A stretch of 64,000 bases of DNA from Tequatrovirus BCH953P4, in the sequence record OZ035789.1, one strand, 5' to 3'. This document shows positions 37,250 through 41,299 of this stretch, piece by piece (position 1 is the stretch's first letter; each line of letters starts with the position of its first letter). A program made the position numbers and the translations under genes. The notes under the pieces were generated by a model. The model was not told the origin of the DNA. It worked only from the letters and a program-made list of their open reading frames with translations, and did no database searches.

Positions 37250-37462
37250 TCATTTTTGTCCTGTATTTACTTTATGCCGATGCACGGCCTTAACTTTATC
37301 AAGGTATTTTTCAAAATTTCGCAATCTAGTATAGTCTGCCGGAGATTGGTTGAGTGATACTTCTCGACGCAAAGCTGAAATGATATTTCCAACTTCCCTA
37401 CGAATTTCATCTAATTGAAGAACAGTAAGATTGCGAAGTTGCTTTTCAGTTAATTGTAGCAT
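37250..37462 (-). CDS. small hypothetical protein
   Basis: 70 aa ORF. Confidence 0.45.
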
Positions 37463-37504
37463 ATATACCCCTTTAGTTAGATAAACCTATTTATAACTTT
37501 TGCA

Positions 37505-38086
37505 CTAACCGAGCTTTTTAGTTAATTCATTCCAATGTTTTCTACACAAAGAAACATAAATTTCATCACCAATACAGATTTGATTACCTTCTTTAACGGG
37601 TGTTCCATCTTCCATTAATCGAGCTGTCATAATCGCTTTTTTGCCGCAATGACAAACTGCCTTCAGTTCAATAAGTTTATCTGCAATTGCCAAAAGTTCT
37701 TTAGAACCTTCAAATAATTTTCCGGCGAAATCAGTCCTTAATCCATAAGCCATAACAGGAACATTATATGTATCAACAATTCGGCTCAATTGATGCACCT
37801 GTTCAGTTTTTAAAAACTGGGCTTCATCTACAAATACGCAATGAATATCTTTTTGTGCTTCAGCCCATTTATAGAACTCGAAAATATCCATATCATCTGT
37901 AATAATATTCGCTTCCTGTTTAATTCCAATGCGAGAAACGACTTCACAGACAGAATCACGAGTATCAATAGCAGGCTTAAGAACTAATACACTCATTCCA
38001 CGTTCTTTATAATTATGTGCAGCAGTCAAAAGAGAAGCAGATTTTCCAGCATTCATTGCTGCATAAGTAAAAATTAAACTCGCCAT
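37505..38086 (-). CDS. tk: thymidine kinase
   Basis: 193 aa as in T4 tk; P-loop AAMNAGKS; C-terminal zinc-ribbon cysteines. Confidence 0.9.
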   Translation of the reverse strand: MASLIFTYAAMNAGKSASLLTAAHNYKERGMSVLVLKPAIDTRDSVCEVVSRIGIKQEANIITDDMDIFEFYKWAEAQKDIHCVFVDEAQFLKTEQVHQLSRIVDTYNVPVMAYGLRTDFAGKLFEGSKELLAIADKLIELKAVCHCGKKAIMTARLMEDGTPVKEGNQICIGDEIYVSLCRKHWNELTKKLG

Positions 38087-38095
38087 ATCACCTTC

Positions 38096-38281
38096 TTAAA
38101 GCGTATTCACATAAGCTATTAATTCGTTTTCTTTCTTATCAAACCGATCAGCAAATTCTTCCTGTTGTTCAGGAGATAGCGGGCCGTATTCATCATAAAA
38201 GGTGTTTGCTTCTGTATGCTCATCTAGAAGTTCATGGATAAGCTCAAACAATTTATCTTTTTGTTCTTTACTCAGACTCAT
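38096..38281 (-). CDS. small acidic hypothetical protein
   Basis: 61 aa ORF. Confidence 0.45.
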   Translation of the reverse strand: MSLSKEQKDKLFELIHELLDEHTEANTFYDEYGPLSPEQQEEFADRFDKKENELIAYVNTL

Positions 38282-38447
38282 ATATTAATTTCCAGGAGTT
38301 TTAAAATAATTCGCTTTTGCTTAAATATTTCCACAGTTAAATGATCAGTATCTTTTTGACCAATTCCAATGGCAAAACCTTTATTAACAGCGAGTTCAAT
38401 TAAATTATCAAGTTCACGTAACACTTCATATTGTAACTCAGAACTAT

Positions 38448-38675
38448 TCATTTCGGTTTACCTTCTTTAACGAAATCTGGATAAGGATAAAATCCCGAAT
38501 AAAATCCTTCACCTTTATGATTGATGCATCCTTTATTAGAACAATAGCACCAATAATCGAAATCACAAACCATTTCATCGTTGCATAAAGCAAAAACAAC
38601 CGGCCATTTACACTTTTCACAGTGGGCATTTTTAAGAATACTTGTTTGGCTCATAACCATGTAACCTTTAAGCAA
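38448..38675 (-). CDS. small cysteine-rich protein
   Basis: 75 aa with 8 cysteines (CEKCK...CNDEMVCDFDYWCYCSNKGC). Confidence 0.5.
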   Translation of the reverse strand: MLKGYMVMSQTSILKNAHCEKCKWPVVFALCNDEMVCDFDYWCYCSNKGCINHKGEGFYSGFYPYPDFVKEGKPK

Positions 38676-38863
38676 TATTCTTCTACGTGCTGTTTACGAC
38701 CTTTCTTATCAATAAAGGTATATTCAACGAATGTTCCAATATAGTCTTTATCTACATCATGCGGACTATTAATTGGACATTTAGTACGGCAAATGCGTTC
38801 CCATTGACGAATAATTTCCACTTTGTTTTTAGGATCAAACGGATGCGGGTAATGTACTTTCAT
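38651..38863 (-). CDS. small hypothetical protein
   Basis: 70 aa ORF. Confidence 0.45.
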   Translation of the reverse strand: MKVHYPHPFDPKNKVEIIRQWERICRTKCPINSPHDVDKDYIGTFVEYTFIDKKGRKQHVEEYCLKVTWL

Positions 38864-39314
38864 AATCCACCACTATTAAATCAATATCAGGAGTAAACAT
38901 GTCGATTAATTTAGAAACCTTATCCCAATCGCCGCCAGCAATACCGCAACCTATGCGTGGAATGTAAATTACTGGTTTAAACAAAAGGGTTTCTGCCTGT
39001 AGATTTAATTCTATCATGCAGTTTACTAAAGCACCATAATCAAGATTAGGACCCGGTTCATATTGCGTATACAGGTTATAGCATATACCAAATCCTGTAG
39101 GATTATGTTTAAAAACAATAGACATATCGCCTAATTTATCACGAGAACCGTACTCGGTAGTGGTTTTATCTATTTCCAAAATTTTAGGATAGGCTCTTGC
39201 TAATTGACCTGCTACGCCAGAGCCCATTGTGTGGAAGCAATTGCACCCATGCGCAATAATATTACCTTGAAGAAATAGGGCGACAAGATCGCCCTTGATA
39301 TATTTTACAATCAT
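38835..39314 (-). CDS. macro-domain-like protein (putative ADP-ribose binding or hydrolase)
   Basis: 159 aa; GDL...AHGCNC...GSGVAGQL and PRIGCGIAGGDWD resemble macrodomain signature segments. Confidence 0.55.
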   Translation of the reverse strand: MIVKYIKGDLVALFLQGNIIAHGCNCFHTMGSGVAGQLARAYPKILEIDKTTTEYGSRDKLGDMSIVFKHNPTGFGICYNLYTQYEPGPNLDYGALVNCMIELNLQAETLLFKPVIYIPRIGCGIAGGDWDKVSKLIDMFTPDIDLIVVDYESTLPASV

Positions 39315-39652
39315 CTAGTACTCAATCCTCGATTATAAGAATCTACTAAACGGTCAACCATTGAATGACAAGCGGCTTTATCTTTCTCCTCCGCAACTGA
39401 ACATTCTAAGGTATTCCACTTTTTAGCATATCGTTTTAACAATGTATCATTTTTGTATCTGCTTGATTTATCTCTTTCTCCGTCTTTATATGCATATATT
39501 AATTTCTGCGCAAATTCAGCTTGGCATGCTTTATTTTTCCCACAATAATCCGCGGCAGTACGGTTTACATACTCTCTAATTTCAGTATATGATGTATCTG
39601 CTAACGCAGAAAATGAAATTAATCCTATACATAAAACCAAAATTTTAGTCAT
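39311..39652 (-). CDS. secreted/periplasmic hypothetical protein
   Basis: 113 aa; N-terminal signal peptide MTKILVLCIGLISFSALA; four cysteines. Confidence 0.55.
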   Translation of the reverse strand: MTKILVLCIGLISFSALADTSYTEIREYVNRTAADYCGKNKACQAEFAQKLIYAYKDGERDKSSRYKNDTLLKRYAKKWNTLECSVAEEKDKAACHSMVDRLVDSYNRGLSTR

Positions 39653-40190
39653 TTACTATTTCCAAAAGTTTATTATTTTTAAGGTAATTAGCCTTTTCTA
39701 GGACTTCAGAAGCATATTTAGAACCAGCTTTAACATTCCATCCCGAATTATAAGAGGATATTGCTTTTCTTATATCGCCCTTATGTATATTTAACCAATA
39801 AGAAAGTTCAATGTACGCCCAGGAAGCTGAATTGGATCGTTTATTCAACATTCTTTTTATTTCAGCATCGGTCATATTATAACCAAGTTCCTTAACTCTT
39901 GCTCGCATAGTAGGCAAATAATTTTGGAACATTCCGTAGGCGTGATGCTTTGGTTTAGATTTTAAATTAACTCCGCCAGAGCTTTCTTGCCATAAAATGG
40001 CTGCCATTATATGGCCCAATCCGCTCTTGTGGATGTTTTTGTGTGTTTTATATTTTCCATCCTTAGAAAATTGTTCCCCGAATTGATATGCGTAGCGCAT
40101 GTTATCGAGTTGGACATTACTGAAAGTATGCTCGGAGCTATGTGCCATCATTGAAATGGCCAATAGACCAGCGAGTAGTGCTTTTCTCAT
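39645..40190 (-). CDS. secreted lytic transglycosylase-like protein (SLT domain)
   Basis: 181 aa; signal peptide MRKALLAGLLAISMMAHS; QESSG and YGMFQ motifs typical of SLT domains. Confidence 0.6.
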   Translation of the reverse strand: MRKALLAGLLAISMMAHSSEHTFSNVQLDNMRYAYQFGEQFSKDGKYKTHKNIHKSGLGHIMAAILWQESSGGVNLKSKPKHHAYGMFQNYLPTMRARVKELGYNMTDAEIKRMLNKRSNSASWAYIELSYWLNIHKGDIRKAISSYNSGWNVKAGSKYASEVLEKANYLKNNKLLEIVND

Positions 40191-40197
40191 GCTTACC

Positions 40198-40659
40198 TCA
40201 TTGAGTTTTAATTACTGCTTTAGAAGCCTTTCCTGGTAAACGACGACTGTTGATAATTGCCATCCTACATTGAAGCGACGGGTCTTTGAACTTCGCATTA
40301 GGTTTACAAACTGTAAATCCAAGCCAAAGATTTCCATCTGTGATTTCTAAACGTCCAGGGCGATATTCAACCCCATCAATAAAATCCTCGTCAATGTCAG
40401 GACGCGGAGGCATACTCAGGAATTCATTAACTTCTAAAACATGGTCTTTTATTTTGTGGAATAATTCAAAAACATATGTCTCATCAATCTCCCGTTGAAT
40501 TGCACGATCAAGAAGATGCTGAGAATATTTTAGATGAAACGATGAGACCCCTGCTGCTTTTGATGCCTCACGAATCTCATTGTTAATTTGACGAAACTCC
40601 GACTCAAAGTGACGACGAAGCTTATTTCGACGGATAAAAACTTCTGTGTTGATAGTCAT
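40198..40659 (-). CDS. regB: RegB sequence-specific endoribonuclease
   Basis: 153 aa as in T4 RegB; position. Confidence 0.8.
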   Translation of the reverse strand: MTINTEVFIRRNKLRRHFESEFRQINNEIREASKAAGVSSFHLKYSQHLLDRAIQREIDETYVFELFHKIKDHVLEVNEFLSMPPRPDIDEDFIDGVEYRPGRLEITDGNLWLGFTVCKPNAKFKDPSLQCRMAIINSRRLPGKASKAVIKTQ

Positions 40660-40718
40660 GTTATTCTCCTCTTAACTGATAGAAAAATTATACCACAGTC
40701 AAGAGGAAAAGTAAACAG

Positions 40719-41039
40719 TTATTCTTTAAATCTAATCAATTTATTCATAGACTTTGTAACTTCTGCACGAACCTCATGTAGATTTTTGAGCTGTTCAAGA
40801 CGCTGCTCATAGTAAGCAATTTCATCTTCTTCGAGACAGTCCTGTGAATCTTCTTTAAGATAGCGTGCATAGTCCTGGAAAGCGTTACGGACTACTTCCT
40901 GGAAATCATCAAGACTTTGAATTTTCTTAGGAGCAACAGATACACGACGAGGGGCAGTATAATACTCATAACCAAACCCTGCGCTTAATTGAGCCATTAA
41001 TATTTTTCCTCTGGTTGGAACACAGCACGACAAGCCCAC
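40719..41039 (-). CDS. hypothetical protein (vs region)
   Basis: 106 aa ORF. Confidence 0.5.
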
Positions 41040-41299
41040 ATACTGGCTTCTTTGAGTTTCGTTTTAGCAATAGTTAACTGATCGAGGCTTTCGGCATAAT
41101 TCTTCGCGAATTCACAGTCTTCACAATTATCTAGTGCTTCCCAGAATTCATCGTATAAAGCATCAAAGATAAGTCCTAAACGAACTTCAGCGTCTTTGAT
41201 GGCATTCACTTTACCGATTTTCTTTTCAGTATGCGGCTTATAACCCTTAATATCTTCAATCATATTTGACTTCCTCACCAGTACATAAATCATATTCAA
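40997..41299 (-). CDS. small hypothetical protein (vs region)
   Basis: 100 aa ORF (88 aa from the internal Met). Confidence 0.5.

What the first reader, a model, noticed from the sequence alone, without database searches (positions are those of the whole stretch)
38835..39314. Macro-domain-like protein next to tk
Segments GDL...AHGCNC...GSGVAGQL and PRIGCGIAGGDWD resemble macrodomain ADP-ribose-binding loops. T-even phages ADP-ribosylate host proteins (Alt, ModA, ModB), and hosts use ADP-ribosylating toxins such as DarT for defence. A phage macrodomain could reverse or read these marks. The canonical NAAN motif is replaced by AHGCNC, so this is either a divergent macrodomain or a look-alike.
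Basis: partly seen in the sequence, partly recalled or inferred. Interest (0 to 1): 0.55.

Follow-up and report, generated by a model that had tools for sequence, protein, structure and literature searches.

The report
Phage T4 tk.4/adfM macrodomain gene
This is a real macrodomain gene: the T4-like phage gene tk.4, recently named adfM, whose T4 version protects the phage from the bacterial DarTG2 system that ADP-ribosylates DNA. It is a known gene, present here as a divergent allele that has not been tested.

Summary

The window comes from a Tequatrovirus. The gene lies between vs and tk.3, so it is the positional ortholog of T4 tk.4. Its macro (A1pp) domain was noted in 2006, and GenBank already annotates it as "macro domain protein" or "phosphatase". 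A November 2025 preprint showed that deleting T4 tk.4 sensitises T4 to DarTG2 and renamed the gene adfM.

Two refinements came out of this work:
- **Active site.** The position of the catalytic lysine of DarG (K80) and TARG1 (K84) holds a glutamine, Q84, in 121 of 121 family members. Together with H22 and N25 this matches SCO6735, a lysine-free hydrolase that removes ADP-ribose from thymidine in DNA. It does not match DarG or the PhiKZ protein also called AdfM.
- **Allele.** The window protein is only 57% identical to T4 Tk.4, while the flanking genes are 93-100% identical. Synonymous sites are saturated and dN/dS is 0.24, which indicates an old allele swapped in by recombination. This allele has not been tested experimentally.

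The parts
38835..39314 (-). tk.4 / adfM coding sequence: a 159-aa single-domain macrodomain protein
39237..39251 (-). H22-G23-C24-N25-C26 motif, the counterpart of NAAN in MacroD-type domains. H22 and N25 align with SCO6735 H24 and N27, and N25 aligns with DarG N22 and PhiKZ AdfM N23.
   Evidence: H22, G23, N25 and C26 are present in all 119 sequences that cover the column. Alignments. DarG N22A and PhiKZ N23A both reduce activity.
39204..39227 (-). M30-G31-S32-G33-V34-A35-G36-Q37: first glycine-rich ADP-ribose-binding loop (GxG after strand 2)
   Evidence: G33 is invariant and A35 and Q37 are conserved. The loop aligns with the DarG V31 and Q34 contacts to ADP-ribose.
39063..39077 (-). N80-L81-Y82-T83-Q84. 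Q84 occupies the position of the catalytic Lys of TARG1 (K84) and DarG (K80), and of the essential Gln85 of SCO6735.
   Evidence: Profile alignment to TARG1, MAFFT alignment with DarG and PhiKZ AdfM, alignment of a family member to SCO6735. Q84, N80 and Y82 are present in 121/121 sequences. SCO6735 Q85A is inactive.
38925..38960 (-). P119-R-I-G-C-G-I-A-G-G-D-W130: second glycine-rich (diphosphate-binding) loop. A126 sits where TARG1 has the catalytic D125.
   Evidence: P119, G122, G124 and W130 are invariant. Aligned to TARG1 PRIGCGLDRLQW and DarG PPLGAGNGGLPW.
38850..39276 (-). Divergent allele cassette. DNA identity to T4 falls to 35-75% here, while both flanks are 95-100% identical.
   Evidence: Pairwise DNA alignment and sliding identity. 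Codons 1-12 are identical at DNA level. For codons 13-155, dS is 1.5-3.1 (saturated) and dN/dS about 0.1-0.2. Flanking proteins are 93-100% identical to T4.
39311..39314 (-). ATGA overlap of the vs stop codon with the tk.4 start codon (translational coupling)
   Evidence: Read directly from the sequence.
38835..38863 (-). 29-nt out-of-frame overlap of the tk.4 3' end with the tk.3 start. It arises from a 13-nt deletion relative to T4 and encodes a low-confidence C-terminal tail, YESTLPASV.
   Evidence: DNA alignment to T4. ORF coordinates. Mean pLDDT of the last block is 68.

Best explanation
The ORF is the tk.4 (adfM) gene of a T4-like Tequatrovirus. It encodes a stand-alone macrodomain enzyme. 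It most likely binds the ADP-ribose that the host toxin DarT2 attaches to thymidines in single-stranded phage DNA and hydrolyses the ribose-thymine bond, so that phage DNA replication can proceed in cells carrying DarTG2.

The chemistry is probably not DarG's lysine-based mechanism. The active site has His22, Asn25 and Gln84, the arrangement found in the lysine-free hydrolase SCO6735, which removes ADP-ribose from thymidine in DNA. There the Gln positions the distal ribose and an activated water is proposed to attack.

What is shown and what is inferred:
- Shown here: the macrodomain fold, its class, positional orthology with T4 tk.4, the active-site residues, and purifying selection.
- Taken from the literature, for the T4 allele only: the anti-DarTG2 phenotype.
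- Inferred: that this 57%-identical allele does the same job, that the substrate is thymidine-linked ADP-ribose on DNA, and that the mechanism is Gln/water based.
For: - **Orthology.** The window is 98.6% identical to phage teqskov, where the gene is annotated 'macro domain protein'. The gene order regB, vs.1, vs, tk.4, tk.3 is the same as in T4. Identity to T4 Tk.4 is 57% with no gaps.
- **Function of the ortholog.** T4 tk.4 was the single DarTG2-specific hit in a transposon screen, and a clean knockout is DarTG2-sensitive.
- **Active site.** Q84 sits at the K84/K80 position. H22, N25 and Q84 are present in every sequence that covers them. SCO6735 has H24/N27/Q85, cleaves thymidine-linked ADP-ribose from DNA, loses all activity with Q85A, and its loss sensitises S. 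coelicolor to DarT.
- **Both alleles keep the core.** All 15 family-invariant residues are shared between the two alleles, and dN/dS is 0.24.
- **Net charge is no objection.** The protein is acidic (pI 5.0), but so is PhiKZ AdfM (pI 5.05), a proven DNA de-ADP-ribosylase.
Against: - No experiment exists for this allele. It differs from the tested T4 protein at 66 of 155 positions, including the second binding loop (GCGIAGGDW here, GAGIGKGNW in T4).
- Even for T4 the enzymatic step is only inferred by the authors.
- The DNA-contacting lysines of SCO6735 (K34, K89) and DarG (K29) are absent. S32 takes the place of K34/K29, and the loop after Q84 is shorter.
- Related phage homologues sit in NAD+ salvage gene clusters, which hints at small-molecule substrates.
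- The HxCNC motif is shared with Poa1p, a phosphatase acting on ADP-ribose-1''-phosphate.
Confidence: 0.7

Rival explanations
1. The main job is processing soluble ADP-ribose derivatives, for example as an ADP-ribose-1''-phosphate phosphatase like yeast Poa1p or as an O-acetyl-ADP-ribose deacetylase. That would make it part of phage NAD+/ADP-ribose metabolism, or a destroyer of ADP-ribose-based immune signals.
For: - PHROG 335 is labelled 'phosphatase', and many GenBank records follow that label.
- Homologue P0106 lies between an NMNAT-NUDIX gene and a NAMPT gene in four uncultured-phage contigs.
- Vibrio phage homologues abut ribose-phosphate pyrophosphokinase.
- Iyer et al. 2022 argued that phage macrodomains mostly target low-molecular-weight ADP-ribose derivatives.
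Against: - The T4 ortholog has a specific DarTG2 phenotype.
- T4-like phages in this window region carry no NAMPT/NMNAT cluster beside the gene.
- The 'phosphatase' label is inherited from the old A1pp domain name and was never tested.
- The two activities are not mutually exclusive.
Confidence: 0.13
2. It removes ADP-ribose from proteins, either reversing the phage's own Alt/ModA/ModB marks or undoing host ADP-ribosylating toxins.
For: - TARG1 and SCO6735, both close structural relatives, also hydrolyse Glu/Asp-linked protein ADP-ribose.
- T-even phages do encode ADP-ribosyltransferases (general knowledge; alt is listed as a T4 gene).
Against: - Alt, ModA and ModB modify arginine (established knowledge). 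That linkage is normally reversed by ARH/DraG-type enzymes and only by specialised macrodomains such as MavL (title and abstract seen).
- No genetic or contextual link to alt or mod was found.
- The only phenotype on record is DarTG2.
Confidence: 0.06
3. It acts mainly without catalysis, either by binding and blocking DarT2 directly or by simply reading ADP-ribose.
For: Catalytically dead SCO6735 Q85A still inhibits DarT in vitro, more strongly than dead DarG or dead TARG1.
Against: - Every residue that lines the ADP-ribose pocket, and the Gln at the catalytic position, is invariant across 121 diverse homologues. This is the conservation pattern expected of an enzyme.
- The protein lacks the DarT-binding C-terminal domain of DarG. 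NCBIfam DarG scores 28 bits against a cut-off of 250, and the PADLOC match covers only positions 2-144 of 329.
Confidence: 0.05
4. It removes ADP-ribose from RNA, for example uracil-linked marks or mRNA marks made by CmdT-like toxins.
For: Reversible ADP-ribosylation of uracil in RNA has been reported, in a paper that mentions TARG1 and DarG repeatedly (title and abstract only). Thymine and uracil are chemically similar acceptors.
Against: CmdTAC gives robust defence against T-even phages even though they carry tk.4 (abstract). I found no data for this family on RNA.
Confidence: 0.04

Closest known systems
T4 Tk.4 = AdfM (anti-DarT factor Macrodomain), bioRxiv 10.1101/2025.11.20.689424
   Same: - Same locus, between vs and tk.3, and same length class.
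- 57% identity over 155 residues with no gaps.
- All 15 family-invariant residues are shared, including H22, N25 and Q84.
   Different: - 66 substitutions, concentrated in residues 51-79 and 131-148 and in the second glycine loop.
- A 4-residue longer tail, created by a 13-nt junction deletion.
- The window allele has not been tested experimentally.
SCO6735 of Streptomyces coelicolor (PDB 5e3b) and its Bacteroides relative BT1257 (2afc/2fg1)
   Same: - The same His/Asn/Gln active-site residues and the same PRIGCG(L/I)AGG(x)W loop.
- SCO6735 cleaves thymidine-linked ADP-ribose from DNA and protects against DarT.
   Different: - Only about 25-29% identity.
- The window protein lacks K34 (it has S32) and the longer mobile loop with K89.
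- It is acidic (pI 5.0) whereas SCO6735 is basic (pI 9.6).
- It is encoded by a phage rather than being a cellular gene that protects the host's own DNA.
DarG, the macrodomain antitoxin of DarTG2 (PDB 5m31, 5m3i, 7omu)
   Same: - N25 corresponds to DarG N22, and the GxG loops are shared.
- It probably acts on the same substrate.
   Different: - The catalytic Lys80 (FPTK motif) is replaced by Gln84.
- There is no C-terminal DarT-binding domain and no adjacent darT gene.
- The DarG profile scores only about 28 bits.
PhiKZ gp104, also named AdfM (Cell Rep 2026, PMC13309987)
   Same: A phage-encoded single macrodomain that counters DarTG2. The Asn corresponding to N25 matters for its activity.
   Different: - It belongs to a different sub-family. 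PhiKZ AdfM is a close DarG relative: E 9e-25 to Mtb DarG, 133 bits on the PADLOC DarG model, and it keeps the FPTK lysine.
- BLASTP against the window protein finds only a 23-residue patch.
- The shared name hides two independent acquisitions.
Human TARG1/OARD1 (PDB 4j5s)
   Same: Top Foldseek hit (E 3.8e-10, TM 0.72-0.82). It shares the PRIGCG loop and the His of the H-x-x-x motif.
   Different: The TARG1 catalytic dyad K84/D125 corresponds to Q84/A126 here.
Yeast Poa1p, ADP-ribose-1''-phosphate phosphatase (PDB 6lfq)
   Different: The C-terminal half aligns poorly. The pathway that produces its substrate (Tpt1/KptA-type RNA repair) is not known in T4; that is general knowledge and was not tested here.

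Membership tests
Macrodomain superfamily (Pfam PF01661) | Sequence match above the curated threshold | tested here: met
   33.1 bits against a gathering score of 22, E 5.8e-8, covering profile positions 2-117 of 118.
Macrodomain superfamily (Pfam PF01661) | Three-layer alpha/beta/alpha fold with a mixed beta-sheet | tested here: met
   [not shown]
Macrodomain superfamily (Pfam PF01661) | Two glycine-rich loops that hold ADP-ribose | tested here: met
   MGSGVA (30-35) and IGCGIAGG (121-128) align with the corresponding loops of TARG1, DarG and BT1257 and are conserved across the family.
Macrodomain superfamily (Pfam PF01661) | Actual binding of ADP-ribose | not testable with these tools
   Needs ITC, thermal shift or a co-crystal structure.
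ALC1-like / TARG1-like macrodomain class | Closest structural neighbours are TARG1, DarG and SCO6735-type proteins rather than MacroD or viral types | tested here: met
   [not shown]
T4 Tk.4 / AdfM orthologous group | Same genomic position and full-length homology | tested here: met
   Gene order regB, vs.1, vs, tk.4, tk.3 in both phages. 57% identity with no gaps. PHROG 335 at E 1e-71.
T4 Tk.4 / AdfM orthologous group | Protects the phage from DarTG2 | not testable with these tools
   Shown only for the T4 allele.
DarG antitoxin (DarTG2) | Catalytic lysine (TaqDarG K80, FPTK motif) | tested here: not met
   Gln84 occupies this column, in 121 of 121 family members.
DarG antitoxin (DarTG2) | C-terminal DarT-binding domain and full-length model score | tested here: not met
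   The protein is a single 159-aa domain. NCBIfam DarG scores 28.4 bits against a cut-off of 250. The PADLOC DarG match covers only positions 2-144 of 329.
DarG antitoxin (DarTG2) | Encoded next to a darT toxin gene | tested here: not met
   The neighbours are vs and tk.3. A bacterial homologue, P0098, also has no darT-like neighbour.
SCO6735-type lysine-free hydrolase of thymidine-linked ADP-ribose | His24 / Asn27 / Gln85 active-site residues | tested here: met
   H22, N25 and Q84 fall in the same columns, shown through the P0098 to 5e3b alignment and the family alignment.
SCO6735-type lysine-free hydrolase of thymidine-linked ADP-ribose | DNA-binding Lys34 and the extended mobile loop with Lys89 | tested here: not met
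   S32 replaces K34. The stretch from Q84 to Y93 has 9 residues, against 14 in SCO6735 (Q85 to Y99), and it has no lysine.
Poa1p-type ADP-ribose-1''-phosphate phosphatase | HxCNC motif and the residues probed in Poa1p structures (H23, S30, F152) | tested here: inconclusive
   H22 and C24-N25-C26 match, and T29 aligns with S30. The C-terminal part, which includes F152, aligns too weakly to judge.
MacroD-type (Af1521-like) | N-A-A-N motif and closest similarity to MacroD proteins | tested here: not met
   [not shown]

The most novel reading that the evidence does not exclude
T-even phages did not capture a DarG antitoxin. Instead they carry a lysine-free, SCO6735-like enzyme that removes ADP-ribose from DNA. 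Several ancient alleles of it (window-type, T4-type and at least two more) are shuffled as a cassette among otherwise near-identical phages because the alleles are not functionally equivalent. They might differ in which DarT variants, acceptor bases or DNA modifications they handle, or in escaping host factors that recognise them.
Probability: 0.2. Interest if true: 0.5.

Novelty: already known. Interest (0 to 1): 0.2.

Why it matters
It confirms that this phage carries the recently described counter-defence gene against DarTG2, a bacterial immune system that ADP-ribosylates DNA.

The practical value is modest. The common 'phosphatase' label on this gene in phage genomes is probably misleading. 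Two proteins now both called AdfM (T4 Tk.4 and PhiKZ gp104) belong to different macrodomain branches with different catalytic residues. The allele in this window is at least as common in sequenced phages as the T4 allele (311 records at 90% identity or more, against 224), yet it has never been tested. Anyone predicting DarTG2 sensitivity of therapeutic T4-like phages would need to know whether both alleles work.

Tried and rejected
- **Single-sequence AlphaFold run.** It gave pLDDT 34 and was discarded. The run with a 52-sequence alignment was used instead.
- **'Orphan DarG antitoxin'.** Rejected as a membership claim: no catalytic lysine, no second domain and a weak DarG profile score.
- **Fast in-place positive selection as the cause of the 57% identity.** Rejected: synonymous sites are saturated, dN/dS is 0.24, and the edges are sharp next to 95-100% identical flanks. 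This pattern fits recombination of old alleles.
- **Net negative charge as an argument against DNA substrates.** Rejected, because the validated PhiKZ AdfM is just as acidic.
- **Promoter and terminator scan of 37300-41200.** No more sites than in shuffled sequence.
- **GC-rich hairpin in codons 7-13.** Not significantly more stable than shuffles: z -1.83, with 9 of 200 shuffles folding as well.
- **darT next to a bacterial homologue.** None found.
- **Technical failure.** The T4 locus file never appeared in the Python sandbox, so comparisons with T4 used the alignment tools instead.

Full report
**1. The observation**

The window has an ATG-to-TGA ORF of 159 codons on the minus strand at exactly 38835..39314 (sequence read).

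Its start codon overlaps the stop codon of the upstream gene vs (ATGA, 39311-39314). Its last 29 nt overlap the start of tk.3. Thymidine kinase (37505..38086) is four small ORFs away, so 'next to tk' is loose.

**2. It is a true macrodomain**

Sequence evidence:
- Pfam Macro (PF01661): 33.1 bits against a gathering score of 22, covering almost the whole profile.
- PDB by sequence: BT1257 (1.6e-10), yeast Poa1p, SCO6735, Mtb DarG and TARG1. A 52-sequence family profile raises these to 4e-19, 6e-17 (TARG1), 2.5e-15 (SCO6735) and 6e-12 (DarG).

Structure evidence:
- A single-sequence AlphaFold run was useless (pLDDT 34). With the family alignment the model reached pLDDT 95 and pTM 0.89.
- Foldseek against the PDB puts TARG1, Poa1p, BT1257 and DarG on top, at TM 0.72-0.83.

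The protein therefore belongs to the TARG1/DarG/SCO6735 ('ALC1-like') branch. In that branch the NAAN motif of MacroD enzymes is normally H-x-C/x-N. By my own alignment to Af1521, recalled from memory, NAAN lines up with H22-G23-C24-N25, so the second Asn is kept. The odd motif marks a class and is not a sign of a look-alike.

**3. Which gene it is**

The region is 98.6% identical to Escherichia phage teqskov and 97-98% identical to hundreds of other Tequatrovirus genomes. In teqskov the gene is already annotated 'macro domain protein'. RefSeq copies call it 'phosphatase', after PHROG 335.

The gene order regB, vs.1, vs, this gene, tk.3 ... tk is that of phage T4. This is therefore the positional ortholog of T4 tk.4. 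An A1pp (macro) domain in tk.4 orthologs was reported in 2006 (PMC1524935).

**4. What is known about function**

- **T4 tk.4.** A bioRxiv preprint of November 2025 (10.1101/2025.11.20.689424) found tk.4 as the single T4 gene specifically depleted in a transposon library grown on cells expressing DarTG2. A clean knockout became DarTG2-sensitive, and the authors named the gene adfM. They infer, but do not show, that the protein removes ADP-ribose from DNA.
- **Background.** Earlier work had shown that T4 lacking adfA and adfN is still DarTG2-resistant, and predicted a further factor (PMC11825919).
- **PhiKZ gp104.** A separate 2026 Cell Reports paper gave the same name, AdfM, to this protein and did show removal of DarT2-made ADP-ribose from DNA in vitro (PMC13309987).

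It is also already published for the T4 version of the gene.

**5. First refinement: the active site is not DarG-like**

DarG needs Lys80 and TARG1 needs Lys84 with Asp125 (PMC5179494; PMC9411070). In the profile alignment to TARG1 and in a MAFFT alignment with both DarG structures and PhiKZ AdfM, that lysine column holds Gln84 in the window protein and in T4 Tk.4. TARG1 Asp125 corresponds to Ala126.

Across the window protein plus 120 homologues, down to about 40% identity, Q84, N80 and Y82 are present in 121 of 121. H22, G23, N25 and C26 are present in every sequence that covers those columns.

The His/Asn/Gln arrangement is that of Streptomyces SCO6735 (H24, N27, Q85). I mapped it through the alignment of family member P0098 to chain 5e3b, using the 20-residue tag offset. 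What is known about SCO6735:
- It cleaves thymidine-linked ADP-ribose from DNA faster than DarG or TARG1.
- It is dead as Q85A or Q85E.
- It is proposed to use an activated water.
- It protects S. coelicolor from DarT.

In contrast, PhiKZ AdfM is a close DarG relative. It matches Mtb DarG at E 9e-25, keeps the FPTK lysine and scores 133 bits on the PADLOC DarG model, against 28 for the window protein and 36 for T4 Tk.4. BLASTP between it and the window protein finds only a 23-residue patch. Two different macrodomain lineages have thus been recruited by phages against DarT2 and given one name.

There are limits to the SCO6735 analogy. The window protein lacks SCO6735's K34 (it has S32) and the long lysine-bearing loop after the Gln. 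It is also acidic (pI 5.0), but so is the validated PhiKZ enzyme.

**6. Second refinement: a divergent allele in a T4-identical background**

Identity to T4 for each protein:

| Protein | Identity to T4 |
|---|---|
| Tk | 100% |
| Vs.1 | 100% |
| RegB | 99% |
| Vs | 97% |
| Tk.3 | 93% |
| Tk.4 | 57% (89/155, no gaps) |

- **Boundaries.** DNA identity is 98-100% up to codon 12 of tk.4. It then falls to 35-75% through the rest of the gene and returns to 95% or more inside tk.3.
- **Selection.** Nei-Gojobori estimates give dS of about 1.6 overall, and 3.1 in codons 51-155, which means saturation. dN is 0.38 and dN/dS is 0.24. Codons 1-12 have no synonymous change at all. This is an old, purified allele moved in by recombination, not rapid local evolution.
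- **What differs.** Both alleles keep all 15 family-invariant residues. The differences cluster in residues 51-79 and 131-148 and in the second glycine loop (GCGIAGGDW here, GAGIGKGNW in T4).
- **Junction.** A 13-nt deletion at the tk.4/tk.3 junction makes the window gene run 29 nt into tk.3. It adds a low-confidence tail.
- **Frequency.** In the phage collection, 311 records carry the window-type allele at 90% identity or more. The T4 type is in 224 records at 90% or more, plus 159 at 80-90%.
- **Other lineages.** Further allele lineages at about 75-80% and about 60% identity exist in other T4-like phages.

**7. Rival functions**

- **Small-molecule ADP-ribose processing.** This is the main rival. 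The HxCNC motif is shared with Poa1p. In four uncultured-phage contigs, a 44%-identical homologue lies between an NMNAT-NUDIX gene and a NAMPT gene. Vibrio phage homologues abut ribose-phosphate pyrophosphokinase. A 2022 survey argued that phage macrodomains mostly target small ADP-ribose derivatives (PMC9503650). The T4 genetics argue that DNA repair is the selected role in T-even phages, but a dual role is possible.
- **Reversal of Alt/Mod marks on proteins, action on RNA, or non-catalytic DarT2 binding.** These are less likely, for the reasons given under the rival explanations.

**8. Verdict**

Two modest points are new here: the Gln-type, SCO6735-like active site, and the cassette-like allele polymorphism that leaves the window allele untested. 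I rate interest as low (0.2) and novelty as 'already known'.

Noticed in passing
L005:3292-6484, L006:1995-5187, L007:51-3243, L008:53-2597: In four uncultured-phage contigs, a Tk.4-family macrodomain (P0106, 44% identical to the window protein) sits directly between an NMNAT(CTP_transf_like)-NUDIX fusion gene and a NAMPT gene, which together form a phage NAD+ salvage cluster. Vibrio phage homologues (H52, H65) lie next to ribose-phosphate pyrophosphokinase. Outside T-even phages the family may therefore be tied to NAD+/ADP-ribose metabolism.
   Followed up: partly
window 38440-38660 (minus strand ORFs 38448..38654 and 38278..38451): A second mosaic block lies just downstream of tk.3, where DNA identity to T4 drops to 27-40%. 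The window has three small ORFs between tk.3 and tk (PHROGs 2306, 3452 and 653), where T4 has two (both PHROG 653). One of the three is a 68-aa cysteine-rich protein (CEKC...C..C...CYC..KGC) of unknown function.
   Followed up: partly
window 39277-39295 (minus strand, tk.4 codons 7-13): An 8-bp GC-rich hairpin, AGGGCGAUCUUGUCGCCCU, lies inside the coding sequence. It is conserved in T4 and sits exactly at the left edge of the divergent cassette. Its stability is not significantly above shuffled sequence (z -1.83), so it may be a by-product of the GDxVA codons.
   Followed up: partly
literature (no coordinates): Two unrelated-lineage phage macrodomains now share the name AdfM. T4 Tk.4 is the Gln-type, SCO6735-like protein. 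PhiKZ gp104 is the Lys-type, DarG-like protein. The Cell Reports paper states that no macrodomain Adf had been reported before it.
   Followed up: yes
window 39645-40190 (minus strand, vs.1): In the teqskov GenBank record, several genes of this region (vs.1 and other vs.x ORFs) carry the label 'endoribonuclease RegB'. This appears to be annotation spill-over from the true regB (window 40198..40659). Other records call vs.1 a lytic or SLT transglycosylase.
   Followed up: no
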